Virus record (IMG/VR): IMGVR_UViG_3300006920_000004
Location: 4,110 to 68,109 of that record
Source of the DNA: a virus
Direction: 5' to 3' (one strand)
Length of the DNA stretch: 64,000 bases
The translations under genes and the position numbers were made by a program. Below the pieces are notes generated by a model. The model was not told where the DNA came from, made no database searches, and saw only the letters and a program-made list of their open reading frames with translations. This document shows positions 723 to 60,887 of the stretch, in pieces. Position 1 is the stretch's first letter. The number at the start of each line of letters is the position of its first letter.

Positions 723-790
723 GCAATAGGGCAGACGTTCTTCGTTTCAACATTTGTGGAAGAAAAAAAGAAAAAAAGCCCACCGCACTT

Positions 791-13704: not shown

Positions 13705-14039
13705 CGTGGGAATATAGATACGTTTTTAGCGTTATTCTTTTTTAGCCAATACATTAAACTTGGCATATCGTTATACTGTGGTTGTTCGGTGTTATTAAAC
13801 TTTTGCATAATACCATCTAAAATTATTTGCTGTAATTCGCCAAGAGTAAGTTTAGGGTATTCGTTTTTAATAAAACTAGCTGCAACAATTATTTGCTCTC
13901 CCGTACTATTGTTGTTTCTGATTGAATTAAGCAGCGTAACAGCTTGTGCTACCTCATTTATTGTTGAGGAACATAATTGCTTGTTGTTGTCCAATTGCGC
14001 TAATATCGCTTGTTTCTGTGTTGTTTCTAATGATTTCAT
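13701..14039 (-). CDS. Hypothetical protein, possible helicase loader/inhibitor
   Basis: Position between initiator and helicase; function inferred from synteny only. Confidence 0.5.
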   Translation of the reverse strand: MKSLETTQKQAILAQLDNNKQLCSSTINEVAQAVTLLNSIRNNNSTGEQIIVAASFIKNEYPKLTLGELQQIILDGIMQKFNNTEQPQYNDMPSLMYWLKKNNAKNVSIFPR

Positions 14040-14703
14040 TTGTCCAAGATTTGTTGTTAAAAAATGTTAAAGGGTTTTTTCTATATTTTTTTTCGGGAGT
14101 AGATTTTAAATAGTCTGGCAAGTAATTTATTATTTTCTCTTTATCTGCTTGTGAAATATTATTCCACGCTTTCTCTGATTTAGGTCTATCTATTTTTTTA
14201 TCATAGGCAGTCCAAAAATCTTCAAAAGTTGGATAAACATCTAAATCTATATGTTTACTTGTTTTTTGTTTATTATCTTCTTCTTTACTTAGTAGTTGCT
14301 TGTTATCCATGTGTGGTTCATCCGTTGACGGTTCAACCGTGCATGGATAACAAGTACGTGGTTCAGTCGTAGATTTAAAAAAAGGTTGCGGATTTTCAGT
14401 ATGTGGTTCACCGTTAAAAGGCACGTCATATACTATATGGTTGTATTCAAAAATTCCTAAACTATTCTGTTTTTTTAAAGATAAAATATAACCACTTTCT
14501 TGTAGTTCTTTAAATACAGTGTTTAATTTATCCTTTCCTACACCAATCCTTTTATATAGCTGCGTTTTGTATATCACCCAATTATGGGGTAACGACAGTA
14601 AATGGCAGAGAAGCCCTATTGCCTCTAATGACAGTCCAATTTTTAATACCTCATTAGAAAGTACTAAATAATTAGATGCGTGCTTTGATTTAACTATACT
14701 CAT
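13954..14703 (-). CDS. Phage replication initiator/replisome organizer
   Basis: N-terminal wHTH (LSLEAIGLL...KELQESGYI), EP-repeat linker, C-terminal FEDFW.AY.KK...KNPLTFFN..SW. Confidence 0.8.
   Translation of the reverse strand: MSIVKSKHASNYLVLSNEVLKIGLSLEAIGLLCHLLSLPHNWVIYKTQLYKRIGVGKDKLNTVFKELQESGYILSLKKQNSLGIFEYNHIVYDVPFNGEPHTENPQPFFKSTTEPRTCYPCTVEPSTDEPHMDNKQLLSKEEDNKQKTSKHIDLDVYPTFEDFWTAYDKKIDRPKSEKAWNNISQADKEKIINYLPDYLKSTPEKKYRKNPLTFFNNKSWTNEIIRNNTETSDISAIGQQQAIMFLNNK
14312..14415. repeat. Iteron-like 15-bp-periodic repeats inside the initiator gene (candidate origin)
   Basis: GGTTCA at 14315, 14330, 14360, 14405 and a degenerate copy at 14345. Confidence 0.55.
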
Positions 14704-14882
14704 TATTGTATATGGCTTGTTAGGGTATTAATTAATTTCTTTATATCTTCAGTATTAAGTTTTACCGAACATATTTTAGAAGGGAAGTAAGTGTCATCTT
14801 GAATAAAAATTAGAACGGTATTATTATCTGATTTTATTAGTTCTAATTTACTTTTTTTTGAAGTAAAAATTGATTTTGCCAT
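14703..14882 (-). CDS. Small hypothetical protein
   Basis: MAKSIFTSKK...; TAATG coupling to the initiator gene. Confidence 0.55.
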   Translation of the reverse strand: MAKSIFTSKKSKLELIKSDNNTVLIFIQDDTYFPSKICSVKLNTEDIKKLINTLTSHIQ

Positions 14883-14918
14883 AATTCTTTAAAATTTTAA
14901 ACTTTTAATTGGTAAAAA

Positions 14919-15062
14919 TTACTTTGACTTAATTAAAATAGTCTTTCCTAATTTAACTGCATCTAATGTCTTTCTTGAAATTGCTTGGTATATAGCTTGT
15001 ACGCTAACCCCTTTTTCTTTTGCGTATTCTAATACGCTTTTGTAATTATTTATGTTTTCCAT
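14919..15062 (-). CDS. 47-aa excisionase-like HTH DNA-binding protein
   Basis: MENINNYKSVLEYAKEKGVSVQAIYQAISRKTLDAVKLGKTILIKSK; leaderless promoter TACATTTG-N4-ATG. Confidence 0.7.
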   Translation of the reverse strand: MENINNYKSVLEYAKEKGVSVQAIYQAISRKTLDAVKLGKTILIKSK

Positions 15063-15251
15063 GTGGCAAATGTATATTTAATATTTTAAATAGCAAGTTT
15101 TATTTTAAAATTATTTATATTTTATATGATTACTAATACTTTATTTTTTTTAACCACCATTTTCTTCTCTACAAAAGTATAATACCTAATGGTATAATTA
15201 CATTAATTTAATTTAACTTGTTATTTAGTTAAATATCATTACTTTTGCGAT

Positions 15252-15446
15252 ATGAAAGATTACATATTGCGCTTTGAATTTTACGGAAGGAAGATGAGTA
15301 CAAAAGTAAGAGCATACAACATTAAAGATGCTAAACGTCAAGTAAATGACAGATTAAATTTCATTAGCATAGAAGATATTACAGAACCCGATTTCTCGGC
15401 AGATGATATGCTAAATAACATTAAGAACTTATTCGGATTTAAATAA
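15252..15446 (+). CDS. Hypothetical protein
   Basis: 64 aa; leaderless promoter TACTTTTG-N4-ATG. Confidence 0.75.
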   Translation: MKDYILRFEFYGRKMSTKVRAYNIKDAKRQVNDRLNFISIEDITEPDFSADDMLNNIKNLFGFK

Positions 15447-15457
15447 ACAAATAATAT

Positions 15458-16672
15458 ATGGCAAACAATGGAGTATCGAGGTGGGCGATTTACGAGGAAG
15501 CAATTAAAGATATTATTCTTGAAACTAATTTAGAATCAGACACCGAAATTGCAAGACAGGTTTGTCAGAAATTAAAGTTTACATTAGAGTTTAAGGAGTT
15601 AAGAGAATTTAGGAAGTATGTTTATAGAAATAAACGAAGAATATTAGACGACCATGAAGGAATTTACGATGCAACTAAAGGATTAGATGTAGACTTTGGA
15701 AATGTTAAACACATGTGGCTTAAAAACAAAACCGCAAGTTTATTTGTTAAGAATCCTAATTTTGTAAAGCAAGGCGAAACAGCACCTAAAGAAATTGATT
15801 TCTTGTCAATATTTAAGGATAAAATAGAACCAATTAACTTATCTCCTACACCAAGTAAAATAAATGGTTTTGATAGGTTTATTTATACCGATGTCCACGT
15901 TGGAATGTGTGTTGATAAAGATGGTTTTGCATTATACGAAGGTAAGTGGGACGAGGAGGAGTTAAACATAAGACTTAAAATAGCTATTGATTGGATATTG
16001 AACCATAAAAAGTTTAATACATTGTTTATCAGCGATTTAGGTGATTATATGGACGGATTTGATGGACTTACAGTAAGAAGAGAACACCATTTACCGCAGA
16101 ATATGGATAATCAAACTGCCTTTGATGTTGGATTGAGGTTTAAAATTAAAATGATAGATAGTTTAATTCCTTATTACGATAAAATTGTTTGCAATAATAT
16201 TACGGATGACAATCATTCTGGCTCTTTTTCCTATATTGTTAATTCAGCATTTAAGGCTTACATTGAACTAAAGTACCCTAATGCTGTAACAGTAAACATA
16301 CAGCGTAAGTTCATGGATTACTATATGGTTATGGATAAATTCTGTATAATTGAGTGTCATGGAAAAGATGGTGGGACTATGAAGTTTGGTTTAAAACCGC
16401 AAATAAATGACAAAATTATCAAGACTATATCACATTTTATTGACCAAAATTATTTATCTAAAAAAGGAGTTATAATAGAATTTGACAAAGGAGATAGCCA
16501 TCAATCGCTTATAGATAAGTCTTGCAGTACAAAGTTTCAGTATCATAACTTTCCAAGCTTTGCTCCTCCAAGTAACTGGGTTAAAACTAATTTTCAGAAT
16601 AGTATGAGTGGCTTTACCTTTAGGAACTATTATACCAATGGACAAGTTAGTAATCACGATTATATCTTTTAA
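15458..16672 (+). CDS. Calcineurin-like metallophosphoesterase/nuclease
   Basis: TDVHVG, LGDYMDG, DNH, CHG, GDSH motifs. Confidence 0.85.
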   Translation: MANNGVSRWAIYEEAIKDIILETNLESDTEIARQVCQKLKFTLEFKELREFRKYVYRNKRRILDDHEGIYDATKGLDVDFGNVKHMWLKNKTASLFVKNPNFVKQGETAPKEIDFLSIFKDKIEPINLSPTPSKINGFDRFIYTDVHVGMCVDKDGFALYEGKWDEEELNIRLKIAIDWILNHKKFNTLFISDLGDYMDGFDGLTVRREHHLPQNMDNQTAFDVGLRFKIKMIDSLIPYYDKIVCNNITDDNHSGSFSYIVNSAFKAYIELKYPNAVTVNIQRKFMDYYMVMDKFCIIECHGKDGGTMKFGLKPQINDKIIKTISHFIDQNYLSKKGVIIEFDKGDSHQSLIDKSCSTKFQYHNFPSFAPPSNWVKTNFQNSMSGFTFRNYYTNGQVSNHDYIF

Positions 16673-16675
16673 TCT

Positions 16676-17032
16676 ATGATTATTCCATCCTCCTTTAATA
16701 TGTTTGGACACACAATAACTGTAAAGTACGATAACAAGTATTGTGCAGAAAACGAGTGTTATGGTGAATTTATATATTGGGAAAACACTATTGTACTAGC
16801 AAATAAATACAAAACAGAAAAAACTTGGAGGAAATATAAAGAATCTATAATTGAACATACTTTTTATCATGAATTAGGGCATTGTGTATTATATTATACA
16901 GGCTATGCTGATTTATGGTTAGATGAAAAATTAGTAGATTTAATAGGTGCGCTATATCATCAATACGAAATAAGTAAAACAATAGAAACGAATGGAAAAC
17001 GAAAAAGAAAAAGTAGAAGTAACCAGATTTGA
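16676..17032 (+). CDS. HExxH zinc metallopeptidase-like protein
   Basis: TFYHELGHC followed by DE. Confidence 0.65.
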   Translation: MIIPSSFNMFGHTITVKYDNKYCAENECYGEFIYWENTIVLANKYKTEKTWRKYKESIIEHTFYHELGHCVLYYTGYADLWLDEKLVDLIGALYHQYEISKTIETNGKRKRKSRSNQI

Positions 17033-17165
17033 GATTATAAATCATGCAGATAATGATAAGCCTATTGGTAGATTATTAACTATGAAAAAAATATATGGAG
17101 ATTTTCAATAAGTAGAGGTTCAATATCAAGATGGTGGTAAGACTATTAAAGTATTCTTGAGGTAG
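16992..17165 (+). pseudogene. Small phage gene with an in-frame TAA
   Basis: MENEKEKVEVTRFEIINH...GDFQ*VEVQYQDGGKTIKVFLR; TAA at 17109-17111. Confidence 0.5.
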
Positions 17166-17170
17166 TTATT

Positions 17171-17389
17171 ATGATAGAAGCTAAAGAAAAAGCATTAGAA
17201 ATATTTAACGAGCATTATTTTTACTTGAGAGCGAATCTAATGCACGATGAAGATGCTAAAGAAGATGCAATAGAATGTGCTTTAATTACAGTAAATAGAA
17301 TCTGGAAAGAATTAGAAAACGAAAGAGTATTTGAAATGTACGATTACTGGCAAGAAGTTAAGAACGCACTAGAAAATATATATATTTAG
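17171..17389 (+). CDS. Hypothetical protein
   Basis: 72-aa ORF. Confidence 0.7.
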   Translation: MIEAKEKALEIFNEHYFYLRANLMHDEDAKEDAIECALITVNRIWKELENERVFEMYDYWQEVKNALENIYI

Positions 17390-17436
17390 GTATTTTAGTA
17401 AGCACATCAGTTCAAAACTGACATCTGAAATATAAA

Positions 17437-17476
17437 TCATAATTACTAATTAAAAAGATTTAATTAGTAATTATGA
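17437..17476. repeat. Perfect 18-bp inverted repeat overlapping a promoter -33 element
   Basis: TCATAATTACTAATTAAA-AAGA-TTTAATTAGTAATTATGA. Confidence 0.85.
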
Positions 17477-17498
17477 ATTATATTTTTATTTTTGTGAT

Positions 17499-17588
17499 AT
17501 GAAATTAATACTAATAACAATAATTATATGGGAAATAGTTAAAAACTATGTTCCTAAATTGTTTCATTATTTTTTAAATAAAATGTAA
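17499..17588 (+). CDS. 29-aa leaderless membrane peptide
   Basis: TATTTTTG-N4-ATG; MKLILITIIIWEIVKNYVPKLFHYFLNKM. Confidence 0.5.
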   Translation: MKLILITIIIWEIVKNYVPKLFHYFLNKM

Positions 17589-17589
17589 C

Positions 17590-17955
17590 ATGACACGCAA
17601 AGAAACCATATTAACACTAAACAAAGAATATAGGCGCATCTGTAATGCTTATATAGAAGAGTTTGTGAAAAAGCAAAAGATTAGTTTTGACTATAATATG
17701 GCACAAGAATCAGGAAATACCGTAAGATACTTTGAGCAATATTATTTTAACGTACAAGATATTATATTTGATTTGACTAACAACTGCGCTAAAGGGTTAA
17801 TTTACAGGTGGCAACAATATAATATTAAGAACGATTGCCAATGGACTTATTCTCAATACTGCAAAGGGTTAAGAAAAAGACATAAACAAATAGAAAATAT
17901 TGAAGAACCTTGTCAAGTAACATTAACACACAATGGAGTAGTAATAAATAGATAA
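17590..17955 (+). CDS. Hypothetical protein
   Basis: 121-aa ORF. Confidence 0.7.
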   Translation: MTRKETILTLNKEYRRICNAYIEEFVKKQKISFDYNMAQESGNTVRYFEQYYFNVQDIIFDLTNNCAKGLIYRWQQYNIKNDCQWTYSQYCKGLRKRHKQIENIEEPCQVTLTHNGVVINR

Positions 17956-17971
17956 AAAAACAAATAAACAC

Positions 17972-18322
17972 ATGAAATCAAAACAAGAATTTAACACACA
18001 AGAAGAGTACAGAGAATATTTATTCCAGTACTATTGCCCAACTTGCTTACTATCTGTTAGCCAAAGTGCGCTAGGCGGAGTTAATCAGTACATTGCTGCT
18101 ACTAACTTAGCTAAAGACCTAGTAAATGCAGTAGCACCCTTAGAAATGGATATTCCGCACCCAATGAAAACAAGTAGAGAAGAAATTTTAGGAAGAATTA
18201 TTCCTCAACAAGAATTTGATAAAGTAGTAGAAGCTAATAGAAAGTGGTACGAACTACACAGAGGAACAGGGAGTAATAAAGTAGTAGTTACGAACCCAGA
18301 AGTTGAGGGAGATATGTCGTAA
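17972..18322 (+). CDS. Hypothetical protein
   Basis: 116-aa ORF. Confidence 0.7.
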   Translation: MKSKQEFNTQEEYREYLFQYYCPTCLLSVSQSALGGVNQYIAATNLAKDLVNAVAPLEMDIPHPMKTSREEILGRIIPQQEFDKVVEANRKWYELHRGTGSNKVVVTNPEVEGDMS

Positions 18323-18732
18323 TGGCTAAAAAGGTAGAAAAACAAAGGTTTAAAATTGACTTTATAGAATTTTGTTTCCTCGTGGAGGCGTGCATACCGC
18401 CAAGACCGATTGCTCGTGCAATGTTTTGGCATAATGTAATAAACGAGTATTACCACGAACTTACGACAAACGAAAGAGTAAAGCTATACGAATGGATAAA
18501 TAGAAGTTATTCTATGCAACACGCTCTAGAACTCAATAACGAAGATGCTATTGAGTTTAACTTACGCTACGACCCTAATAATCAGTATGAGGTAAGAACT
18601 GAATGTGAAGGCAAAGAAGAAACCGTACAAGCCTACAAAGATGGAGATAAGTACTATGTAAAAATTAACAAATGGATTTCACCAGAGTTTATAAAGGAAG
18701 TAATAAAAACAGAATGGAACAAGGAAAATTAA
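18322..18732 (+). CDS. Hypothetical protein
   Basis: 136-aa coupled ORF. Confidence 0.75.
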   Translation: MAKKVEKQRFKIDFIEFCFLVEACIPPRPIARAMFWHNVINEYYHELTTNERVKLYEWINRSYSMQHALELNNEDAIEFNLRYDPNNQYEVRTECEGKEETVQAYKDGDKYYVKINKWISPEFIKEVIKTEWNKEN

Positions 18733-18902
18733 AAATAACATTTGAAACAGACAATGTAAAGCACTTAGCTGTTATGAGTGATTCTGTAGGACTAGAAGAA
18801 ATATACAACGCAGTAAACGCAATGCTGATAGGTATGACTTTTCATCAAGAAACAATAAACAATTACATTTTAGAATTAGCAGAGAGTATAGAAAATAAAT
18901 AA
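18714..18902 (+). CDS. Hypothetical protein
   Basis: Likely start MEQGKLKITF. Confidence 0.6.
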   Translation: MEQGKLKITFETDNVKHLAVMSDSVGLEEIYNAVNAMLIGMTFHQETINNYILELAESIENK

Positions 18903-19085
18903 AAAAAAATTATGAACAAAATAGAAAGAGCAATTTACGATGTTAAGTTATTAATTAAAGACAGAGAGTATAAAATATTAGTTGCAGAAACAGAACTTAA
19001 ATCTTTAAAAGTACAACTTAACACTTTAATAATAATTGAAGAAGACCAATCCATACCTTACGAAACATTTATTAACAAATAAACT

Positions 19086-19286
19086 ATGACACCAATATAC
19101 TTTCAACCAAAAGGAATTAGACCTCAATTTTGTGAGGTAGGTATGATTTCAGATACAGACCCTGATTACATTTGGTACTTAAATGAACCTTGTAAAATTT
19201 TAATTAGTGAAGTTAAAATCATAGACAACGGAGAAGTATTTTATAATAAAAAAACTAGAAACCACGAAGTAATAAAATGGAAATAG
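19086..19286 (+). CDS. Hypothetical protein
   Basis: 66-aa ORF. Confidence 0.65.
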   Translation: MTPIYFQPKGIRPQFCEVGMISDTDPDYIWYLNEPCKILISEVKIIDNGEVFYNKKTRNHEVIKWK

Positions 19287-19424
19287 AAGTATGATAATAA
19301 AAATAAAACACTATGAAACAGTTGTTGAAATTGAAACAAAGGATAGCACAAGCGAAACACATAACAACGAAAATATTTTAAAAATAGTAAAAGAAGTTTT
19401 TATACAAATTACAGAAGTAAAAAA

Positions 19425-19799
19425 ATGAAACTACCAATATTTAAGCAACTCCTTAGTAAAATCAAAAAGACAGATGATACTATTGACATATTATACAAAT
19501 ACATTGACATAACAAATGTTACAGAGGAATATAATTCTATAATAACACTTTTGTTAGAACATTACTACGGAGAAGAAGCTAATGAATGGATAGGCTGGTA
19601 TTTGTACGAGAAAGCAGGTCGTAAGGATATAAAAGCATGGGATAAGGATAAGAAAGAGATATGCAGGAACGAGAAAGAACTTTGGGAGTTATGTGAACAA
19701 GCAAGAGTTGTAAAGCTTGATTACGAACCAAAAACCCCAATGACAAATAAACGAAGAGCAGAACTAATGGAGGAGATGAAAAAAATATTTGTAGATTAA
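19425..19799 (+). CDS. Hypothetical protein
   Basis: 124-aa ORF. Confidence 0.7.
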   Translation: MKLPIFKQLLSKIKKTDDTIDILYKYIDITNVTEEYNSIITLLLEHYYGEEANEWIGWYLYEKAGRKDIKAWDKDKKEICRNEKELWELCEQARVVKLDYEPKTPMTNKRRAELMEEMKKIFVD

Positions 19800-19844
19800 A
19801 AAGATTTAATTAGGAATTTAATTCAAAAGACTTAGATTTGCTCT

Positions 19845-19934
19845 TGTGTTAATTGGAAATAGTTCTCATAATGCTATTTCAAATAAATTTGTTTTGTAAA
19901 AATTCCTTCAATTAATTTTGAGGGAATTTTTTTT
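19845..19934 (+). ncRNA. Candidate stand-alone small RNA (~90 nt)
   Basis: Own promoter TTAATTAG-N19-TAGATTTG (19806-19840), hairpin GAAATAG/CTATTTC, strong terminator 19898-19934, no credible ORF. Confidence 0.6.
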
Positions 19935-19978
19935 AAAAATAAATTAGAATAATTAAATTATTTGCGTATATTTGCAAA

Positions 19979-20089
19979 ACATAAATAAGTATTAGGCAAT
20001 GTGAGAGTTGATTGATACTTACTAAAATTTAGCAATAACTAAATTAAGCCCCTTTTATCTCTCACTAATTGGGGCTTTTTTATTTAATT
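19979..20089 (+). ncRNA. Kissing-loop/terminator 5' leader of an HNH gene
   Basis: Promoter TATATTTG 19967-19974; hairpin loop GTGAGAG (20001-07) complementary to CTCTCAC (20059-65) in the loop of the AAGCCCC/GGGGCTT-U-tract hairpin. Confidence 0.65.
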
Positions 20090-20797
20090 ATGACTGATTT
20101 AGAAAATAAAGAACATAAAAAAGAATATCGTAAAATTAACAAAGAAAAAATTAAAGAATATCAAAAAGAATACAATAAAGAATATCTTTTAAAAAACAAA
20201 GAAAAAGTAATTGAATATATGAAAATATATCGTTTAAATAATAAAGAACATATTAAAGAAAATAATAAAGAATACTATCAAAATAATGCAGAAGAACTTA
20301 GCAAAAAGCAAAAAGAATATAATCAAAAAAATAAGCAGCAGCTTAATGAAAAAGCAAAAGAATATTATCAAAATAACAAAGAAAAACTTAGCAAAAAGCA
20401 AAAAGAATATAATCAAAAAAATAAGATAGAACGTAATAAAAACTTAACCAACAGAAGAGAAACAGACTCATTATTTAAATTAAGAACGAACATAAGAAAT
20501 TTAATTTATATTTCAATAAAAAAGCAAGGGTATTTAAAGCAATCAAGAACATTTGAAATACTTGGGTGTGAATATGAAGATTTTAAATTACATCTCGAAC
20601 GACAATTTACCAAAGGAATGACTTGGGAGAATCAAGGAGAATGGCATTTAGACCACATTTATCCTGTTTCACTTGCAAAAGATGAAGAAGAGTTAATTAA
20701 ACTAAACCACTATACAAATTTTCAGCCTATGTGGGCAGCAGAAAACATAAGTAAAGGGAATAGGATAATAGCAAATACCCAAATTAAATTAATATAA
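20090..20797 (+). CDS. HNH endonuclease with N-terminal K/E/Y-rich helical repeats
   Basis: GMTWENQGEWHLDHIYPVS...HYTNFQPMWAAENISKGN; duplicated KEYYQNN..LSKKQKEYNQKNK; ATG at 20090. Confidence 0.85.
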   Translation: MTDLENKEHKKEYRKINKEKIKEYQKEYNKEYLLKNKEKVIEYMKIYRLNNKEHIKENNKEYYQNNAEELSKKQKEYNQKNKQQLNEKAKEYYQNNKEKLSKKQKEYNQKNKIERNKNLTNRRETDSLFKLRTNIRNLIYISIKKQGYLKQSRTFEILGCEYEDFKLHLERQFTKGMTWENQGEWHLDHIYPVSLAKDEEELIKLNHYTNFQPMWAAENISKGNRIIANTQIKLI

Positions 20798-20892
20798 ACC
20801 ATTCAAAGATTTTTGTAAAAGAGAAGTAAGGACTTACTAGCGTTAAAAAAATTTAATTAGAATCATTCTAAACAATATTTTATATTTGCATT

Positions 20893-21069
20893 ATGGAAGA
20901 AGAATTAAAAAAAATAGAATTGGAAATATTTCTAAGAAATAGAGAGTTTACTCAATTAGCATTAGAAACAAAAGATGCAATAGAAGAAGCGGACTCATTA
21001 GAAACTTTAAAAACATGGTTCAAGGGTACAGTAAACGAATTAGGATTAGATAAATATTTTGGGTTTTAG
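20893..21069 (+). CDS. 58-aa leaderless hypothetical protein
   Basis: TATATTTG-N4-ATG; MEEELKKIELEIFLRN... Confidence 0.6.
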   Translation: MEEELKKIELEIFLRNREFTQLALETKDAIEEADSLETLKTWFKGTVNELGLDKYFGF

Positions 21070-21145
21070 AATAAATAATTAACTAATATTAATGTAATTT
21101 AAAACTAATATGTTATATTTGTGCCTTAAAATTAGATTTAGTATT

Positions 21146-21946
21146 ATGGGTTTACCATTAATTATACCAATAGTAGGAGCAGCTATGCAGGGACTAGGCG
21201 CACTTGCATCTTATCAGAGAGAACAAGCAGCCAAAGCACAGGCTGACCAACTAGCAGGACAACCATTACCCGAATACACTCCAACAGCACAAACTAACGA
21301 GCAATTTAGAACAGCTACTGCTGGAGTAGCTAATCCACAAGGATATAGTGGAGCAGAAACTTCTAAATTTCAAAATAGACTTGCTCAAATACTTGCTACA
21401 CAACAAGCCAACGCTCAAAACATGGGTGGTGGAGGAGTTGCAAGAGCGATTGGTGCAATAGGAAATGCTAGTGCAATAAATTCAAACGCTGATTTTGCTG
21501 CATCTGATGCTAATTTAAACAGAGGGCAAAGAAACATAGCTCAAAGTAGATTAAGCAACATAGTAAATCAAATTCAAGGCATGAAAAATCAAAATACTTC
21601 TTATGCAATGAATAGGAGAGCGCAAACAGAACAAGCATTAGGAAATGCTATAAGAAGTAATCGTGACCAATGGCAAGGTAGTTTAATGAACATGGGTGGA
21701 GATTTATTAGGAGCAGGGTTAACATCAAGAATAGGCATGGGTGGCGCAACAACCGCAACTCCAGCAGAAAGCGCAAGCTTAGGAGGAAGCTTAGGTAAAA
21801 CTTATTTAAGTACAGGCAGTAGAATGAACTTACCAAATAGATTTAGAAATGCAACCTATACAGCCCCAACTCCTAATTATGGAAATGGTGTAAATATGGG
21901 TGATGATTATGGAGATGCAGACCTTATAAATAAATACGGAGGTTAA
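21146..21946 (+). CDS. Probable ejection/pilot virion protein
   Basis: Gly/Ala-rich hydrophobic N-terminus and Q/N/A-rich helices; first gene of the large-protein cluster. Confidence 0.6.
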   Translation: MGLPLIIPIVGAAMQGLGALASYQREQAAKAQADQLAGQPLPEYTPTAQTNEQFRTATAGVANPQGYSGAETSKFQNRLAQILATQQANAQNMGGGGVARAIGAIGNASAINSNADFAASDANLNRGQRNIAQSRLSNIVNQIQGMKNQNTSYAMNRRAQTEQALGNAIRSNRDQWQGSLMNMGGDLLGAGLTSRIGMGGATTATPAESASLGGSLGKTYLSTGSRMNLPNRFRNATYTAPTPNYGNGVNMGDDYGDADLINKYGG

Positions 21947-21951
21947 TAATT

Positions 21952-23427
21952 ATGGCAGAAGACGTAACACTAGGGCTTGGAGGTATATTAGGCGAAAGCA
22001 CTAACTTAAAACCTATAAATGACAGACCTTTTACAAGAGCAGCACAACAAGAATTATCTTTAGGACTAAAAGCTAAAGCTGATGAAGCTAAACTAGCTGC
22101 TGAAAAAGCTAAGGTAGATAGGGAGTATATGAATATTATTAAACCTATTTCTACTGGCAATACAATAATTGATGCCAATATATCAAAAAGATATAATGAA
22201 TTTATGGCAAACAAAGATTACAATAGCTATCAAAAAAGGAATGAACTTGGTAATTTTATGGCTAATCAACAATCTCACGCAAAAGGATATGATGATTTTA
22301 CAAATGCAGTAAAAAAAGGAGATATACTTGTAAGCCCAGAAGATAAGCAAAATATTATTACAAGAAATTACGAAGCCTTATCTAAAAGTTCCGATTTTGC
22401 TAAAAACCCTGAATCTAATTTATACGAACCTATTTCATATCACCCTAATTATGATATAAATAAAATGTTAAATACTGCTTTTACATGGAGTGGAGACACC
22501 CCTTTAAATACTGCTGATAGAAAATTATCATCAATAAAAGGTAGTGATTACGCAAGTATAGCAGTTGCACCAGAAATTGTTGATAATGAAATAAACAAAT
22601 TACTTAAAGATGAACATTTTATGGCTAATTACTTATTAAAAAATAAGGAAAAAGTTAATAAAGAAATGGTTGACAGTAAAGTAGATTTACGACAAGCTGA
22701 ATTTAATTTAATTAAAAAAGAACACGCTCCTGATTTTAGAGTAGAAAGAAATATTAAAGACTTCCCTAAAGCAAGTGGTGGGTTTAATTTTAATTTTGGT
22801 GGCGGAGGTTCAATTGGCAGTAACGGTATTGAAATGAAACCAGACCCTACTAATATTGGGCTGATAAATATTAACAAAATAGTAAAAGAAGGTAAAGAGC
22901 CAGAAGTGTTAAGCGCAACAATACTTGACAAGAATGGCACATCTCATAATTTTGCTAAAATAGAAGGATTCAGAAGGATAGGGCAAGATAATTATCAAGT
23001 AATAGGTTCTATCAAAGAAGGCGGTTCTACCGTTGAGCAAACACCAAAAAACATTAGCGGAGAGCAGTTGGCGAAATCAGTAGGAATGAGTAAGGATGCT
23101 TTAGAAAAGTTCCCTATTTCATTTGATTATGACAAAGAGATGGCTGCAAGAGAAAAAGGTTTCAATATATATGTCAAAAAATATCCAAAAACAGCTAATA
23201 AATCAGGTGAATTAGAGCCTACTACTATGGAATCATTGTATGGCGACCCTGATATTACAAAATACATATCGTATAAACCAACAGCACCAACTGTAAAAAC
23301 AGTAGCACCACAAGCAACAACTAAACCTCAATCAGCAAGTAAAACAATGACAAGTGCTGAATACAGAAAATTAAGCCCAACAGAAAGAGCCGCATTTAAA
23401 ACAAGCGGAGGTAAAGTAGAAGGATAA
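21952..23427 (+). CDS. Probable internal virion (ejection) protein
   Basis: 491 aa; synteny. Confidence 0.55.
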   Translation: MAEDVTLGLGGILGESTNLKPINDRPFTRAAQQELSLGLKAKADEAKLAAEKAKVDREYMNIIKPISTGNTIIDANISKRYNEFMANKDYNSYQKRNELGNFMANQQSHAKGYDDFTNAVKKGDILVSPEDKQNIITRNYEALSKSSDFAKNPESNLYEPISYHPNYDINKMLNTAFTWSGDTPLNTADRKLSSIKGSDYASIAVAPEIVDNEINKLLKDEHFMANYLLKNKEKVNKEMVDSKVDLRQAEFNLIKKEHAPDFRVERNIKDFPKASGGFNFNFGGGGSIGSNGIEMKPDPTNIGLININKIVKEGKEPEVLSATILDKNGTSHNFAKIEGFRRIGQDNYQVIGSIKEGGSTVEQTPKNISGEQLAKSVGMSKDALEKFPISFDYDKEMAAREKGFNIYVKKYPKTANKSGELEPTTMESLYGDPDITKYISYKPTAPTVKTVAPQATTKPQSASKTMTSAEYRKLSPTERAAFKTSGGKVEG

Positions 23428-23431
23428 AAAT

Positions 23432-26400
23432 ATGCCAGATAAAATAAAAGAAGCATTTACAGCTATAAACGACAAAGAGTTATTTTTAGACGAGCAAGAC
23501 TTTAGGGATAATGTAATAAAAGACCCTAAAGGAACATTTGAAGCATTGAATAATTATGGTAAAACTAAAGGGTTTTTTTTAGATTACGGAGATTTTGAAA
23601 GTGCTTTAGATTTAAAAAAAAAAGTACCTTCCGTACCAACTTTTTCAACAAGTTTGGAAGAGGTTATTCAGCCTTTACCAAATGGTGTAAAAGAAATTGC
23701 TCAATCTCCATTAACATCGAACTTAAAATCGGAAATACCGACATACATTGACCCTACAAAACCTTTAAAAACTAAAGATGTTGTAGATGTAAATGCCGAG
23801 AAAAAACCTTTTGATAGCAATGTAATAAGAGAACAGCGTAAGCAAAGAATGGGTACACATAGTAGCAACTTAATGGCTGCCATTGTAAAAGAACCCGACC
23901 TATACACTAAGAAAGCATCTACTTCTCATTACGGAACACAGTTTGTACCCGAAACGCCTAATATTGAAAACATATCAAAGGCAATAGATGTATATGCCGA
24001 CAAAATAAAAAGAACTACTGGCGAAGATATTACTACTTACGATAAACAATATTTAGTAAATAGTGTTGCTGAACAAGTAAAACAAAGAAAAGATATTGCA
24101 GAAGCAGCATCAAATGCAAGTTTAAGGGCAACAAATAGAAAAGAATTACCATCATACGCTTACACAGGGGTAACTAATAATAAAGGAGAAGTATTAACAA
24201 AAGGATTTTTTCAAGAAGCAAACGAAAAAATAATCAACGAGCAAAATAAAGAAGTTAATAATTATAAAATCAATTCTCAAAACTTAACCAATAAAGTTGC
24301 ATTAGAAGTAGCACCCGAAGTAAATGCCTTAAAACTTGATGTTAAAAGCAAAGCAGAAATGTTAAACCAAGAGGTTGCAACTGCTTTTAATAAATCATTT
24401 GAAGAAAAAGACAAAGCACTATACGCTCAATATAATCAATTAGTTCAAAGCGGACAAATGACACCAGAAGTAGCAAACGGTGCATTAAAAATAAAAAGAG
24501 AAGAATTACAAAAGCAAACACAAGACGAAGTAACTGCTGCCTATGCGCCTAAATTTGACCAATTAAATAAAGATGTTAATTTAAAATCAAAAGATATTCA
24601 GAGTAGGTACAATAGAAACTATTTAGCAAAAGCAAACTTACTAAAAGAAGCTACTGATAAGAGATTACAAGAAATAGCCCAAAAAAATATGGTAAATATG
24701 CCAAAGGGGTATATGGAAAAATGGGGTAAAGATTTTCAAGAAAGTTTATCTGAAATAAATAAAAAAAATATAAATCAAGCATATTTAGAAGCCAAAAATA
24801 CACCAATGGCAGTAAGAATGTCAAAAGCTATAACAGCAGGTTTTGGCGATGTATTAGGCTCAATAGGTGGTGCTATGTCTTTTGCAGGTTTAGATGCAAG
24901 TGCAGTAAACGATGTAGTTATTAAAACTGCAATGCAAAACGAATTAGCAAGTGGCGCATACTATCAAATTAAAGACGAGGAGTCAAAATTAAAAGGAAAT
25001 AAATACGAAAACTTTGGAGAAAAACTTTTAGACCCTTCATGGTGGATTGACAATGGTGTTCGTTCTGTTCCATTTATGTTAGCAACTATGCCAGTAGGAA
25101 TAGCAGCAGGTTACGGAACAGGAACTTTGGTTAAAATGTTAGGCGCAAGTAAAAGAGCAGCAGCTATTTCAAGTGCAGTAGGTGGTGGTGCTGTAAGTTG
25201 GTTAGGAGAAGCAACACTAGAAGCAGGAAGTGCATTTAACGATGCTTTAAAACAAGGATATTCAGAAAAAGATGCTGGAGAAATAGCAGCAAGAACATAC
25301 GAGAATAACTTATCAACATTACCTTTAAGTGTGTTTCAAATGATGCCAGTATTTAGTAAAGCGTTTAACTTTACTAAAGCTTTTGCAATGGAAACAGTTT
25401 CAGGGGGAGCAGAAGAAATATTACAAGGTTGGTCACAAGCACAAGCAAACGCATCAGCACAAGGTCAAGACGTAAGTATATTTGAATATGCTAAAACTCC
25501 ACAAGCATTAGAGGAAGGAACTATTGGAGCAGCAATGTCATCGGGAATGGCACTATTTGCTTTAGATAATACTCCTAATATTGACAAACAAATATCTGCA
25601 TTAATGAGTTCTATAAGCGTAGGTGGCGAACAACACGCAAGAGCAGTATTAGATATAATGAACAAGAATAAAGCCATTACAGATGTTCAATATAAAGAAG
25701 CTAATTTACAGTTAGACTATATAATGAATGGTATCGAAAGTGTTCAAAACTTTAACGTAGATGATAACGTGAAGGTAGGATTAGTAGGTAAATTTGCTAA
25801 AATAGGCAGAGCAAAAGCTATGCTTACAGATGATGAAAATGATTTGGCAAGTCAAGCTGCAAAAGAAATGATTGCAGAACAAGAAAAAGAGATAAAAGAA
25901 ATTTTAAAAGGAACTACTCCTTTATATTTAGTATTTGAAAAAGGCAATCCAATACCAACAGCAGCAAGTAAAGAGGATTTTATAGCAATATTAAAAGACC
26001 CAAAATTAAGAGAGCAATTTACATTACAAGCAATAAACGATGATAAATGGCAATCACAAGTAGATAAAGTATATAAAACAGAAACACCAACAGTTAGTGA
26101 AGAAACTTCCCCTTCGGAAGTTACTGCAATAACTGACATAAATCAAGAACAAACAAATGCAGAACAAGAAATTACTCCAACAACTCAAACCACTATTACA
26201 CCAAGTAGCGATATTAGTAGTAAAGTACAGGCATCTGGTAATGTAGAACAAATTGATTTAGATTTTGAAGGAAAACCTAATAAATTTTCAGATATTACAT
26301 TAGAAGATAATAACCAATTCGATTTTGAATATGAACTAAAAAAATCGTTAGGATTTGAAGGCAATCAATCTTTTAGTGGATATAAAGGTATGGGAAAAAT

Positions 26401-28315: not shown

Positions 28316-28352
28316 ATAACTATACTCGCAAAACTACAACAAACAAAAATAG

Positions 28353-28386
28353 AAAGCTATGCTAATTCAGCGTAGCTTTTTGTTTT
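28353..28386 (+). terminator. Intrinsic terminator (first copy of a terminator-promoter direct repeat)
   Basis: AAAGCTATGCT-AATTC-AGCGTAGCTTT followed by a T tract. Confidence 0.75.
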
Positions 28387-28414
28387 TGTTGCAAAAAATA
28401 ATACCTTTGTAATT

Positions 28415-28903
28415 ATGAAATACGAAATACCAAAAAAAGCAATGAACATTGTTAATAGCCTAGCTAAACTAGAACTAGGACAAACATCATTTTATAAACG
28501 ACTTGCTCAACAAGCAAACAAAAGCGGATTCCTATTAGCAGAAAAATATTTTTTAGCAGAAAGCAAAGAAGAGAGCGAACATTTTGACGGGTGGTTATCG
28601 TATGTAAACGGTAGAGGAAACGACTTCTGTATTCCAAGCGTAGAAGAATATGACATAGAAGCAAAAGACCTAACAGAACTTATAGAACTAAGCCTAGAAA
28701 AAGAAATAGAAGTAAGTATAGCCTACAACGAAGCATACAGCGAACTACTAAGCCTAGACGTACCAACAGCAATAAAAGCAATAGAGTACATTACTATTCA
28801 AACACTAGCAGTAGCAATATACAAAGATTACGCATCAGCACTAAGCGGATTAGATAAAAGCGGTCAGTTGGTAGCAGAACACTCAATTTTCGAGGAAAAC
28901 TAA
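28415..28903 (+). CDS. Ferritin-like protein
   Basis: E...S.FY, GF....YF..ES.EE.EH, E..V, Q: non-haem ferritin pattern, 162 aa. Confidence 0.85.
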   Translation: MKYEIPKKAMNIVNSLAKLELGQTSFYKRLAQQANKSGFLLAEKYFLAESKEESEHFDGWLSYVNGRGNDFCIPSVEEYDIEAKDLTELIELSLEKEIEVSIAYNEAYSELLSLDVPTAIKAIEYITIQTLAVAIYKDYASALSGLDKSGQLVAEHSIFEEN

Positions 28904-28905
28904 AT

Positions 28906-29007
28906 ATGGAAAGCGAATGCTGTGGAGCAGAAGAATGGATAGAAGATACAGGTATTTGCGGTTATTGTCGTGAACACGCTGATTGGATGGATACAGAAGA
29001 AGAATAA
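28906..29007 (+). CDS. 33-aa Cys-rich acidic microprotein
   Basis: MESECCGAEEWIEDTGICGYCREHADWMDTEEE. Confidence 0.65.
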   Translation: MESECCGAEEWIEDTGICGYCREHADWMDTEEE

Positions 29008-29032
29008 CTAAATACATTACAATTTTAAAAAT

Positions 29033-29075
29033 GCCCTCCATGCCTATCAACGATGCACACTTGGAGGGCTTTTTT
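29033..29075 (+). terminator. Intrinsic terminator with a 21-nt loop
   Basis: GCCCTCCA...TGGAGGGC-TTTTTT. Confidence 0.75.
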
Positions 29076-29169
29076 GTGTTCAAATTAAAATATATATTTT
29101 AAAACATTTTACTTGCATACATAAATAATATATATTACATTTGTGCAATAATTAAATATATTATTCGAT

Positions 29170-29775: not shown

Positions 29776-29781
29776 AATAAT

Positions 29782-36829: not shown

Positions 36830-36842
36830 CAAATATAAATAA

Positions 36843-60103: not shown

Positions 60104-60119
60104 TAGCTATCTTTGCATT

Positions 60120-60221
60120 ACAAGTTCGGTCTGACACTTTAGAACTTAACAATATTAAACTTCCCATTTATTTGAATTTTGAAGTCAGACCCAAAAAGAG
60201 AGTATTTGGGATTTTTTATTT
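60120..60221 (+). ncRNA. Kissing-loop/terminator 5' leader of an HNH gene
   Basis: Promoter TATCTTTG 60108-15; AAGTTC/GAACTT hairpin with loop GGTCTGAC (60128-35) complementary to GTCAGACC (60184-91) in the loop of the TCCCA/TGGGA-U6 hairpin. Confidence 0.65.
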
Positions 60222-60887
60222 ATGGAAATTTGGAAAGATATAAAAGGGTACGAAGGTTATTATCAAGTAAGTAGTTTAGGGAGGGTTAAATCATTTAAAG
60301 CTAAAAAGGCTAAGATAATGAAAGGTACAGTATCTAATAAAGGGTATCGAGTAGTAAGCTTATGCACAGATAATATTCAATATAAAAACAGCGTTCATGT
60401 ATTGGCAGCCATTGCTTTTAAAGGTCATATACCATGTGGGCATGAAAAAGTTATAAATCATATTGATTTTAATAAATTAAATAATCAAGAAGATAATCTT
60501 GAGATAGTAACACAAAGAGAAAACTGTAACCAAAAACATATAAAATCAAGCAGCCAATATATAGGCGTATATTGGCATGAAAAGCATAAAAAATGGTATG
60601 CTGTAATTTCGTACAATGGCAAGACTAAATATTTAGGATATTCAGAAATAGAAAAGGAGGCATCTATATACTATGAAAATGCTTTATTAGCTATAAAAAA
60701 TGGCAAAGAAATAATCGCAAAGAAATCCGATTTTTCTTCAAAATATAAAGGGGTTTCATGGCATAAAAAATCAAAAAAATGGAGAGCAGTTATTAAAATC
60801 AACAAAAAGGCAGAATATTTAGGTACATTTGCATCTGAAATAGATGCACATAACGCATATCAAAACGCTTTAAATAAAATAATATGA
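60222..60887 (+). CDS. NUMOD4-HNH-AP2 endonuclease
   Basis: EIWKDIKGYEGYYQVSSLGRVKS; INHIDFNKLNN...NLE..T..EN; two AP2-like repeats. Confidence 0.92.
   Translation: MEIWKDIKGYEGYYQVSSLGRVKSFKAKKAKIMKGTVSNKGYRVVSLCTDNIQYKNSVHVLAAIAFKGHIPCGHEKVINHIDFNKLNNQEDNLEIVTQRENCNQKHIKSSSQYIGVYWHEKHKKWYAVISYNGKTKYLGYSEIEKEASIYYENALLAIKNGKEIIAKKSDFSSKYKGVSWHKKSKKWRAVIKINKKAEYLGTFASEIDAHNAYQNALNKII

What the first reader, a model, noticed from the sequence alone, without database searches (positions are those of the whole stretch)
19967..20092. Kissing-loop attenuator leader in front of an HNH gene (copy 1 of a shared architecture)
Seen: promoter, hairpin 1 (TAAGTATTAG/TTGATACTTA, loop GTGAGAG), a small AATTTAG/CTAAATT hairpin, then a terminator-like hairpin (AAGCCCC/GGGGCTT plus U tract) whose 18-nt loop holds CTCTCAC, the exact complement of loop 1; the ATG follows 8 nt after the U tract. 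The leader at 60108-60224 has the same layout with an unrelated kissing sequence, i.e. structure conserved without sequence. Inference: a class of cis-acting RNA that throttles toxic mobile endonucleases through a loop-loop pseudoknot coupled to termination or translation, or a short RNA partner for the nuclease. I cannot assign it to a named family.
Basis: partly seen in the sequence, partly recalled or inferred. Interest (0 to 1): 0.8.

Follow-up and report, generated by a model that had tools for sequence, protein, structure and literature searches.

The report
Kissing-loop leader RNA on phage endonuclease genes
Two nuclease genes in this Flavobacteria-type phage each start with a short folded RNA in which a hairpin at the RNA's 5' end pairs, loop to loop, with the loop of a terminator-like hairpin just before the start codon, and the same undescribed design recurs with many different pairing words on mobile endonuclease genes in related phages.

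Summary

It is more than chance. In an automated test of hairpin-plus-T-tract leaders upstream of homologous nuclease genes, 9 of 20 non-redundant leaders had a loop word that pairs with upstream sequence at shuffle p<=0.007 (Fisher p 1.8e-11).

One large sequence family keeps the same scaffold but uses at least 14 different 6-nt loop words. Each word's exact complement lies in the apical loop of the 3' hairpin in 49 of 59 cognate cases, against 72 of 3130 non-cognate cases.

The element travels with the gene as a promoter + leader + ORF cassette of about 800 bp. No Rfam family matches it.

It is not specific to HNH genes. It also precedes GIY-YIG endonucleases, helicase, primase-polymerase and small unknown genes.

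My best reading is a cis-acting, promoter-proximal leader whose kissing-locked terminator hairpin attenuates transcription and damps translation. This function is inferred only. No RNA data exist, and how the loop pairing affects termination is unknown.

I found no evidence that the RNA partners with the nuclease. I rate it a new variant of a known kind (a leader/attenuator RNA), with high interest for RNA and phage biologists.

The parts
19967..19974 (+). Leader 1: Bacteroidetes sigma-A type -7 box TATATTTG. The predicted transcription start is about 19979.
   Evidence: Sequence. The box position -12..-5 comes from PMC9723704 (passages read). The same box stands upstream of all related leaders.
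19986..20021 (+). Leader 1, hairpin 1: arms 19986-19995 and 20012-20021, plus an inner CAA/TTG helix.
   Evidence: MFE; 13 pairs, 97.4% of cells paired in 9 relatives, and one compensatory pair (23-34).
20001..20007 (+). Leader 1, kissing word X (GTGAGAG) in the loop of hairpin 1.
   Evidence: All 7 pairs with X' hold in 9 of 9 relatives. G-C is replaced by A-U in 2 of them.
20026..20045 (+). Leader 1, small middle hairpin AATTTAG/CTAAATT.
   Evidence: It is the weakest helix among relatives (83.9% of cells paired).
20046..20077 (+). Leader 1, terminator-like hairpin AAGCCCC/GGGGCTT with an 18-nt loop.
   Evidence: dG -12.7; 98.8% of cells paired, with one compensatory pair (82-94).
20059..20065 (+). 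Leader 1, kissing word X' (CTCTCAC) in the loop of the terminator-like hairpin.
20076..20081 (+). Leader 1, T6 tract directly after the hairpin.
20090..20797 (+). Gene 1: a 235-aa endonuclease-VII/HNH-like nuclease, part of a mobile cassette.
   Evidence: PHROG 1035, E 4.6e-11. One search shows that a relative with the same leader family is an insertion of about 800 bp.
60108..60115 (+). Leader 2: -7 box TATCTTTG. The predicted transcription start is about 60120.
60122..60147 (+). Leader 2, hairpin 1 AAGTTC/GAACTT with a 14-nt loop.
60128..60135 (+). Leader 2, kissing word X (GGTCTGAC).
   Evidence: helix -12.6 kcal/mol; 0 of 300 shuffles and 0 of 38 non-cognate pairings as good.
60162..60211 (+). 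Leader 2, long irregular terminator-like hairpin TCCCA...TGGGA. The alternative short hairpin is 60190-60210.
   Evidence: MFE; dG -12.0.
60184..60191 (+). Leader 2, kissing word X' (GTCAGACC) in the apical loop of the long hairpin.
60212..60217 (+). Leader 2, T6 tract.
60222..60887 (+). Gene 2: a 221-aa NUMOD4 + HNH_3 + AP2 homing-type endonuclease.

Best explanation
Each site is the transcribed leader of a self-contained expression cassette: host-type promoter, roughly 100-nt leader, then the gene.

The RNA starts a few bases before a small 5' hairpin. The loop word X of that hairpin forms a 7-8 bp kissing helix with its complement X' in the apical loop of a long 3' hairpin. The G+C-rich base of the 3' hairpin is followed at once by a U tract, and 10-14 nt later by the AUG.

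Shown here:
- The fold, including the loop-loop helix, is under selection as RNA.
- It moves together with the gene.

Inferred:
- The 3' hairpin plus U tract acts as an intrinsic terminator, so most transcripts from the cassette's own promoter, and from upstream, stop as a short RNA of about 100 nt.
- Read-through mRNAs carry a rigid, kissing-locked hairpin that reaches to about -12 of the start codon. In a host without Shine-Dalgarno pairing, this lowers initiation.
- The net effect is a low, context-independent output for a gene that lands in arbitrary places in phage genomes.

Whether the kissing helix strengthens, weakens or times termination is unknown.
For: Structure:
- among 128 distinct upstream regions of homologues of both nucleases, 31 had a hairpin + T tract within 32 nt of the ATG (20 non-redundant). 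Nine of the 20 had an upstream word pairing with the hairpin interior at shuffle p<=0.007. Fisher p 1.8e-11 over all 20.
- In 8 of those 9 leaders X' lies wholly or mostly in unpaired positions of the hairpin's MFE fold. L214, whose hairpin was mis-delimited, is the exception.
- in the GTAGAG-type family the cognate 6-nt complement is present in 49 of 59 cases, against 72 of 3130 non-cognate pairings. I accept 14 distinct words.
- 4 of the 7 kissing pairs show 3-4 Watson-Crick pair types. The apical stem, which was not selected for, is paired in 45 of 45 sequences, with compensatory changes at 2 of its 3 pairs.
- the leader-1 family keeps all 7 kissing pairs in 9 of 9 sequences, with one compensatory change. 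G-U pairs in the stems mark the sense strand as the folded one.

Specificity:
- whole-genome scans of this phage and FCV-1, both strands, gave 290 hairpin+T domains, 9 at p<=0.01. Only three of those also have an ATG within 15 nt, and they are the three endonuclease leaders.
- 652 kb of other phage DNA gave 82 domains and 7 hits. Six are leader-1 relatives and one is dubious.

Mobility:
- L330 differs from L333 by an insertion of about 800 bp that begins just before the -7 box and ends at the nuclease stop codon.
- the leader-1 family also fronts a NUMOD4-type gene (L115).

Terminator and translation reading:
- G+C-rich basal stems are followed by T4-T9 tracts, often with an A tract upstream.
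- the 14 nt before the ATG are 63% T and 20% A in 41 leader genes, against 29% T and 48% A in 275 background ORFs. G of the stem occupies -12/-13 in about half.
- In Flavobacterium johnsoniae, initiation is tuned by secondary structure and by upstream adenines at -3, -6, -12 and -13 (PMC6847099, passages read).
Against: - No RNA data exist: no RNA run holds the phage.
- The U tract is degenerate (for example GGTTACTTACTATT) in 6 of the family's leaders: L244, L256, L266, L277, L290 and L306. Termination therefore cannot be the universal function.
- Helicase and primase-polymerase genes, which need real expression, carry the same leader.
- At leader 2 the next gene overlaps the nuclease stop codon, so efficient termination would be polar on a probable lysis gene.
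- I found no alternative antiterminator pairing.
- Leader 2 on its own does not fold better than shuffles, and no relative of it was found.
- The loops are 7-18 nt or more, larger than in textbook terminators. The consensus terminator scan did not list either hairpin.
Confidence: 0.45

Rival explanations
1. The element is a stabilising and insulating 5' UTR, not an attenuator. The 5'-terminal hairpin locked onto the 3' hairpin protects the mRNA's 5' end from nucleases. It also keeps the rest of the leader from pairing with the U-rich start region, so a mobile gene is expressed the same way wherever it lands. On this view the resemblance to a terminator is secondary.
For: - Hairpin 1 begins 1-7 nt after the predicted transcription start. 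In the GTAGAG family the spacing is TTTR + 5 nt + GTAGAG, and the -7 box lies at -12..-5.
- In some types X is the very 5' end of the RNA (L199, L226, L164).
- The U tract is degenerate in 6 leaders while the hairpins and loop words are kept.
- The leader also precedes replication genes that must be expressed.
- The distance from X' to the ATG is narrow: 26-33 nt in 39 of 46 cases.
Against: - Most leaders have a clean T4-T9 run directly after a G+C-rich stem, often with an upstream A tract. By established knowledge of intrinsic termination, such a run should terminate bacterial RNA polymerase whatever its purpose.
- The start regions are unlike the A-rich ones of other phage genes, which does not suggest efficient translation.
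Confidence: 0.2
2. The element is a conditional switch. The kissing-locked terminator is the default 'off' state, and a phage or host factor reads it through at a set time of infection. That factor could be an antiterminator protein, a modified polymerase, a metabolite or temperature. This would make these genes a delayed class, in the manner of short terminated transcripts that need an antiterminator.
For: - The promoter, short leader, terminator, gene order holds at all sites.
- The leader fronts functionally early-type genes: endonucleases, helicase, primase-polymerase and a Lin1244_N protein.
- One subfamily has a conserved internal loop, AGUA on the 5' side and GAAA on the 3' side next to the apical stem, that could be a docking site. 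That this resembles a sarcin-ricin / loop-E motif is recalled, not tested.
Against: - No sequence element is shared by all types. The covariance model of the large family does not find leaders 1 and 2.
- No candidate regulator was identified.
- No alternative fold competing with the terminator was found.
Confidence: 0.15
3. The terminated RNA of about 100 nt is itself the product: a small, compact, stable RNA that acts in trans. The gene behind it is expressed only by leakage.
For: - Four related leaders (L254, L260, L265, L300) have no ORF until 52-100 nt further on, and those ORFs differ between phages.
- A syntenic relative of this window (L331) has another such leader followed by about 360 nt without an ORF of 30 aa or more.
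- Two complementary loops on one RNA could in principle pair between molecules.
Against: - The ATG follows X' at 26-33 nt in 39 of 46 cases, which fits coupling to the gene.
- The loop words differ between leaders, even within one genome (this window; L264 and L285 lie on one contig). No common target is therefore evident.
- Nothing links the RNA to the nuclease protein.
Confidence: 0.12
4. The element works mainly at the DNA level. As a conserved promoter-plus-stem-loop module it would serve as a recombination point for shuffling gene cassettes, like the PeSL elements of T4-like phages. The RNA fold would be incidental.
For: - The same leader family fronts unrelated genes (L115).
- Leaders sit at borders between conserved and variable DNA.
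- PeSLs are promoter + stem-loop cassettes that flank variable ORFs and recombine (PMC2839356 and PMC4122927, passages read).
Against: - Compensatory changes that keep a long-range 7-bp pairing and the hairpin stems, and G-U pairs valid on one strand only, are what selection on RNA gives. Recombination does not explain them.
- The fast-changing loop words lower, not raise, the homology available for recombination.
- In PeSLs the stem-loop lies within or upstream of the promoter. Here it is transcribed.
Confidence: 0.06

Closest known systems
Regulatory RNA structures and terminators of T4-family homing endonuclease genes (I-TevI/II/III, segB, mobE, seg43(25)); review PMC2988022, passages read
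   Same: - Mobile endonuclease genes in phages carry their own promoters, RNA hairpins next to the start codon and intrinsic terminators that limit expression.
- seg43(25) has a very stable hairpin just upstream of the ribosome-binding site that does not sequester it.
   Different: - The T4 hairpins sequester a Shine-Dalgarno sequence and are bypassed by a late promoter inside the hairpin.
- Here there is no Shine-Dalgarno sequence, the promoter lies upstream of the whole fold, and the hairpin ends 10-14 nt before the AUG.
- A covarying loop-loop helix links two hairpins here. No such pairing is mentioned in the passages I read.
PeSL (promoter-early stem-loop) cassettes of T4-like phages; PMC2839356 and PMC4122927, passages read
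   Same: - Small composite promoter + terminator-like stem-loop modules placed directly before the start codon of variable, often accessory genes.
- They are linked to modular shuffling of those genes.
   Different: - PeSL stem-loops lie between, over or upstream of the -35/-10 boxes and stop transcription coming from upstream.
- Here two hairpins lie downstream of the promoter inside the transcript and pair with each other.
Intrinsic-terminator attenuators and leader RNAs in general, and antisense kissing-loop control of plasmid replication (ColE1 RNA I/RNA II type); recalled knowledge, no call
   Same: - The order promoter, short leader, G+C-rich hairpin + U tract, gene.
- Fully complementary loops of 7-8 nt on two hairpins.
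   Different: - Classical attenuators switch between a terminator and an antiterminator, and none was found here.
- The plasmid kissing complexes form between two RNAs. Here both loops are on one RNA, and X' lies in the terminator's own loop.

Membership tests
Any Rfam 15 family | Covariance-model match at the family's gathering score | tested here: not met
   - the whole window gives only a tRNA and a borderline abiF hit elsewhere.
- region 19900-20150 at E<=10 gives 19 matches, all far below gathering (best 25.3 bits against 55).
- 15 loci carrying GTAGAG-type leaders (114,407 bases) give 7 matches, all tRNA.
Intrinsic (Rho-independent) terminator | G+C-rich stem followed at once by a U tract | tested here: met
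   - Leader 1: AAGCCCC/GGGGCTT + T6.
- Leader 2: TCCCA/TGGGA + T6.
- Most relatives have T4-T9 tracts, but 6 family members have degenerate tracts.
Intrinsic (Rho-independent) terminator | Short loop (3-8 nt in the consensus scan) | tested here: not met
   - The loop or interior is 18 nt in leader 1 and 40 nt in leader 2.
- Neither hairpin was listed by the consensus scan of 12000-30000 (one search covers leader 1 only).
Intrinsic (Rho-independent) terminator | RNA 3' ends at the U tract | not testable with these tools
   No RNA run holds the sequence.
Kissing-loop (loop-loop) complex | Two hairpin loops with Watson-Crick complementary words that covary | tested here: met
   In the large family both loops are 8 nt with 7 complementary bases.
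Kissing-loop (loop-loop) complex | Both stems and the loop-loop helix form at the same time, within one molecule | not testable with these tools
   - No pseudoknot-aware or 3D folding tool was on hand.
- RNAalifold, when given the family alignment, chose the X:X' helix itself as the consensus structure.
T4-type endonuclease translational hairpin | [quoted passage not shown] | tested here: not met
   There is no Shine-Dalgarno sequence, the hairpin ends 10-14 nt before the AUG, and the promoter lies upstream of the whole fold. The definition comes from PMC2988022.
PeSL cassette | Stem-loop within, over or upstream of the early promoter boxes | tested here: not met
   Both hairpins lie downstream of the -7 box in the transcript. 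The definition comes from PMC2839356.
GTAGAG-type leader family (defined here) | Match to covariance model R1, built from 45 members | tested here: not met
   - 8 matches at E<=1 in 455,376 bases, none of them in the window.
- Leaders 1 and 2 share the architecture but not detectable sequence homology.
HNH endonuclease (gene 1) | Pfam HNH-family domain | tested here: not met
   - No Pfam family matches, even at E<=1.
- Gene 1 does match PHROG 1035 'endonuclease VII' (E 4.6e-11).
- Gene 2 meets the criterion: NUMOD4, HNH_3 and AP2.

The most novel reading that the evidence does not exclude
This may be a mobile, self-contained RNA 'governor' that travels with selfish endonuclease genes, and is also used by replication genes, across Bacteroidota phages.

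Its loop-loop word would work as a fast-evolving private barcode. Each cassette's leader would then fold only on itself, avoiding cross-pairing with the other leaders made in the same infected cell. The locked terminator would be opened at a set stage of infection by a factor still to be found.

That would be a new class of conditional attenuator in a phylum whose gene control is poorly known.
Probability: 0.2. Interest if true: 0.8.

Novelty: new variant of a known kind. Interest (0 to 1): 0.7.

Why it matters
- Bacteroidota lack Shine-Dalgarno-led initiation, and little is known about how their phages control gene expression.
- This is a widespread structured RNA, seen here in dozens of viral contigs and in isolated Flavobacterium phages (elemo phages, FCV-1). 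It has unusually clear covariation and a simple design: two 8-nt loops that kiss, one of them on a terminator.
- It gives a directly testable system for how tertiary RNA contacts act on intrinsic termination and on Shine-Dalgarno-independent translation.
- It also bears on how selfish endonuclease cassettes bring their own expression control with them.
- The interchangeable loop words suggest orthogonal parts for RNA engineering in Bacteroidota.

Tried and rejected
- **RNA evidence.** No RNA holder was listed for window 19800-20900.
- **DNA contigs.** Laying four DNA runs on 18500-22500 gave only short contigs, and none bridged an endonuclease-free allele.
- **Relatives of leader 2.** Three had a complementary word downstream, and none looked like a leader. 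Leader 2 therefore stands alone.
- **First structural scan.** It required perfect stems and missed FCV-1, which has a bulged stem. It also gave AT-rich chance hits: 4 clusters per strand in the 68-kb genome.
- **Shuffle test on word length alone.** It gave weak p values of 0.01-0.14, because AT-rich 7-mers match easily. I replaced it with a helix-energy test.
- **RNAduplex cognate against non-cognate test.** It was noisy (Mann-Whitney p 0.002), and I do not lean on it.
- **Limits of the test.** It missed two leaders that are clear by eye: L159 (hairpin mis-called) and L199 (10-bp helix with a G-U). It also scored L075, whose X lies in what I read as a sigma-70-type -35 box and which may be a false positive.
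- **Candidate at window 4998-5123.** I rejected it. It lies among minus-strand genes, and its word is AT-rich.
- **Scan of two large phage records.** It covered 137 domains and gave 5 hits. Two are real leaders, both in front of endonuclease genes, and three are spurious hits in coding DNA. It missed the known leader of G001.
- **Bacterial genomes.** Sixteen relatives of gene 2 were found. Only a 3-kb Paludibacteraceae-binned contig (L335) carries such a leader. A Bacteroides chromosome copy does not.
- **Literature.** None of these searches brought up a description of this element. The supplementary tables of PMC10690425 (10,006 candidate viral RNAs) could not be opened and may list it.
Full report
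**What is in the window**

Leader 1:
- A Bacteroidetes-type -7 box TATATTTG (19967-19974).
- A 10-pair hairpin (19986-19995 / 20012-20021, two G-U pairs) whose loop holds GTGAGAG (20001-20007).
- A small hairpin (20026-20045).
- A hairpin AAGCCCC/GGGGCTT (20046-20077) with an 18-nt loop that holds CTCTCAC (20059-20065).
- A T6 tract (20076-20081), then the ATG at 20090.

Leader 2:
- TATCTTTG (60108-60115).
- A hairpin AAGTTC/GAACTT (60122-60147) whose loop holds GGTCTGAC (60128-60135).
- A long irregular hairpin TCCCA...TGGGA (60162-60211) whose apical loop holds GTCAGACC (60184-60191).
- A T6 tract (60212-60217), then the ATG at 60222.

Leader 1 folds far better than its shuffles (z -3.77, 0 of 200). 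Leader 2 does not (z -1.18, 30 of 200). Leader 2 also has an alternative short hairpin, CCCAAA/TTTGGG, that overlaps X' by two bases.

Gene 2 is a NUMOD4 + HNH_3 + AP2 endonuclease. Gene 1 has no Pfam hit. It matches PHROG 1035 'endonuclease VII', and its relatives in Flavobacterium elemo phages are annotated as HNH or endonuclease VII.

The window is most of a 68,109-base phage record with terminal repeats.

**Is it more than chance?**

I fetched homologues of both nucleases from viral contigs and read the DNA upstream of each. The same layout recurs with unrelated loop words, for example:
- CCGCCAAG/CTTGGCGG (elemo phages, L001, L018).
- GTGAGACG/CGTCTCAC (L007).
- TGGCGG/CCGCCA (L017).
- ATTGCGG/CCGCAAT (L032).
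- GGTAGCAG/CTGCTACC (L170).
- AGCCTAGC/GCTAGGCT (L214).

An automated, unbiased test took all 128 distinct upstream regions.
- It found a hairpin + T tract within 32 nt of the ATG in 31 of them (20 non-redundant).
- For each it asked for the most stable contiguous Watson-Crick helix between the 100 nt upstream and the hairpin interior.
- Nine of the 20 beat their shuffles at p<=0.007, both window leaders among them. A tenth had p=0.033, and ten were not significant.
- Fisher's combination over all 20 gives p 1.8e-11.
- The test missed two leaders that are clear by eye (L159, L199). It scored one (L075) that I think is a false positive.

Whole-genome scans of this phage and of Flavobacterium phage FCV-1, both strands, found 290 hairpin+T domains, 9 of them at p<=0.01. 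Only three of those 9 also have an ATG within 15 nt, and they are the three endonuclease leaders. FCV-1's own leader is GTAGTGC/GCACTAC, in front of gp61.

In 652 kb of other phage DNA, 82 domains gave 7 hits. Six are relatives of leader 1 and one is dubious.

**A large family with one scaffold and many words**

Three leaders (L152, L159, FCV-1) share the 5' hairpin GTAG-AG-N6-CTAC. A pattern built on it gave 62 distinct matches in viral contigs.

Of the 59 with full flanks, 49 have the exact complement of their own 6-nt word within 90 nt downstream. For non-cognate pairings the figure is 72 of 3130 (2.3%).

I accept 14 different words. Three further words came from matches in coding-like DNA, and I dropped them as chance.

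In the alignment of 45 members:
- X and X' fall in fixed columns.
- Four of the seven kissing pairs show three or four Watson-Crick types.
- The three-pair apical stem under X', for which the rows were not selected, is paired in 45 of 45, with compensatory changes at two pairs.

The 100% pairing of the kissing helix is partly by construction, because the rows were chosen for the 6-nt complement. One search is the fair figure.

Both loops are 8 nt with 7 complementary bases, and X' is unpaired in the MFE fold of the 3' hairpin in 45 of 46.

The leader-1 family (9 sequences) keeps all 7 kissing pairs, with one G-C to A-U exchange and two further compensatory pairs in the stems. G-U pairs show that the sense strand is the one that folds.

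A covariance model of the large family finds its members in other records but not leaders 1 or 2. The window's two leaders are therefore separate sequence families that share only the design. No relative of leader 2 was found.

**What it is attached to**

The element belongs to a mobile cassette.
- Two related contigs differ by an insertion of about 800 bp. It starts just before the -7 box and ends at the nuclease stop codon (L330 against L333).
- The leader-1 family also fronts a NUMOD4-type gene (L115).
- A contig syntenic with this window carries, at the same spot after the same upstream terminator, a different leader (GCGTGCGGC/GCCGCACGC). That leader is followed by about 360 nt without an ORF of 30 aa or more.

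The element is not confined to HNH genes. The 46 distinct proteins behind GTAGAG-type leaders gave these Pfam counts:
- NUMOD4 10, NUMOD3 10, HNH_3 9, GIY-YIG 7, AP2 5.
- ResIII and Helicase_C 4 each.
- Prim-Pol and DUF3987 3 each.
- Lin1244_N 1.

By my reading of their N-termini, about 28 of the 46 are homing-type endonucleases. The others are replication genes and small unknown ORFs.

Four related leaders have no ORF close behind.

Conversely, the third NUMOD4/HNH_3 gene of this phage (10593-11477, minus strand) abuts the gene before it and has no leader. Many homologues elsewhere also lack one: 97 of the 128 upstream regions had no hairpin + T tract.

In three complete phage genomes scanned without prior knowledge, all five clean hits front endonuclease genes.

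**How it probably works**

In Flavobacterium psychrophilum the sigma-A box TAnnTTTG lies at -12 to -5 (PMC9723704, passages read).
- Leader 1 RNA should then start near 19979 and leader 2 RNA near 60120.
- The 5' hairpin therefore sits 2-7 nt from the RNA's 5' end, and at +2 in the large family.
- A terminated RNA would be about 100 nt.

The 3' hairpins have G+C-rich bases, T4-T9 tracts and often an upstream A tract. By established knowledge of intrinsic termination, these features should stop RNA polymerase.

The 14 nt before the ATG are 63% T and 20% A in 41 leader genes, against 29% T and 48% A in 275 other ORFs from three phages. G of the stem occupies -12/-13 in about half. In Flavobacterium johnsoniae, initiation is tuned by structure near the start and by upstream adenines, -12 and -13 included (PMC6847099, passages read).

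I therefore read the element as a constitutive, leaky attenuator combined with a translational damper. It is carried by the cassette so that its output stays low and independent of where it lands.

This is inference. No RNA data exist. The sign of the kissing helix's effect is unknown. Six family members have a degenerate U tract. Replication genes use the same leader. At leader 2, strong termination would be polar on the overlapping downstream gene.

The rival explanations are:
- A stabilising, insulating 5' UTR.
- A switch opened by an unknown factor.
- A stand-alone small RNA.
- A PeSL-like recombination module.

**Comparison with what is known**

No Rfam family matches, and six literature searches found no description.

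The closest known systems are:
- The hairpins and terminators that limit T4-family homing endonucleases (PMC2988022).
- The PeSL promoter + stem-loop cassettes of T4-like phages (PMC2839356 and PMC4122927).

This element differs from both. The hairpins are transcribed from an upstream promoter, no ribosome-binding site is sequestered, and two hairpins are tied by a covarying loop-loop helix whose 3' partner sits in the terminator's own loop.

**Verdict**

- I rate it a new variant of a known kind, with interest 0.7.

Noticed in passing
window 29034-29069 (+): This is a borderline Rfam abiF RNA hit (37.7 bits against a gathering score of 37). It is a hairpin GCCCTCCA...TGGAGGGC with a 20-nt loop followed by T6, just after a stop codon, so it looks like an ordinary terminator with a large loop.
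   Followed up: partly
window 36758-36830 (+): A phage-borne tRNA-Met (anticodon CAT), found by both Rfam and ARAGORN.
   Followed up: no
window 10593-11477 (-): A third NUMOD4 + HNH_3 + AP2 endonuclease gene (294 aa). It abuts the upstream ORF and has no promoter or leader of its own.
   Followed up: partly
window 59118-61291 (+): Endonuclease gene 2 sits inside what looks like a lysis cassette. It is preceded by an M15-type endolysin (59118-59498) and two small membrane proteins. The next ORF (60884-61291) overlaps its stop codon; I read that ORF's N-terminus as lipoprotein-like.
   Followed up: partly
window 20881-20895 (+): The gene after endonuclease 1 has a -7 box TATATTTG only 4 nt before its ATG (20893). 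With the box at -12..-5, that would give a leaderless or nearly leaderless mRNA.
   Followed up: no
window 19902-19934 (+): An ordinary terminator (ATTCCTTC / GAGGGAAT with a 10-nt loop, then T8) closes the upstream operon just before the leader-1 promoter. It is conserved in the syntenic contig L331.
   Followed up: partly
window 607-740 and genome G000:C1:2619-3209 (before the window): The scan flagged 10-nt complementary words on both strands (GGTATTTGTG/CACAAATACC; ATTGTGGCAA). It also flagged a hairpin + T-run at G000 3164-3209 with a 7-nt upstream complement and an ATG 21 nt on. The nature of these features is unknown.
   Followed up: no
window 20100-20390 (+): The N-terminal half of gene 1 is a K/E/N-rich repeat (KEYNQKNK-like). 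Metagenome contigs show many skips and back-steps there. They also show roughly 10-fold higher summed depth over 20510-20643 than over the flanks, as expected for a multi-copy gene family with repeat-length variants.
   Followed up: no
L033, L034, L044, L045 (upstream of gene-1 homologues, about 170 nt before the ATG): In phages whose genes use Shine-Dalgarno sites (GGAGG), the homologous nuclease genes have a different long leader. It has a long-range stem and a word (for example CCGTAT) complementary to sequence at the Shine-Dalgarno site (ATACGG), which may be a different solution to the same control problem.
   Followed up: no
A3 alignment columns 53-60 and 70-77 (for example L244, L261, FCV-1/L248, L335): A subfamily of the 3' hairpins keeps an internal loop with AGUA on the 5' side and GAAA on the 3' side, next to the covarying apical stem. 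Other subfamilies have UGAU/UGAU there. It may be a structured turn or a docking site. The likeness to a sarcin-ricin / loop-E motif is recalled, not tested.
   Followed up: partly
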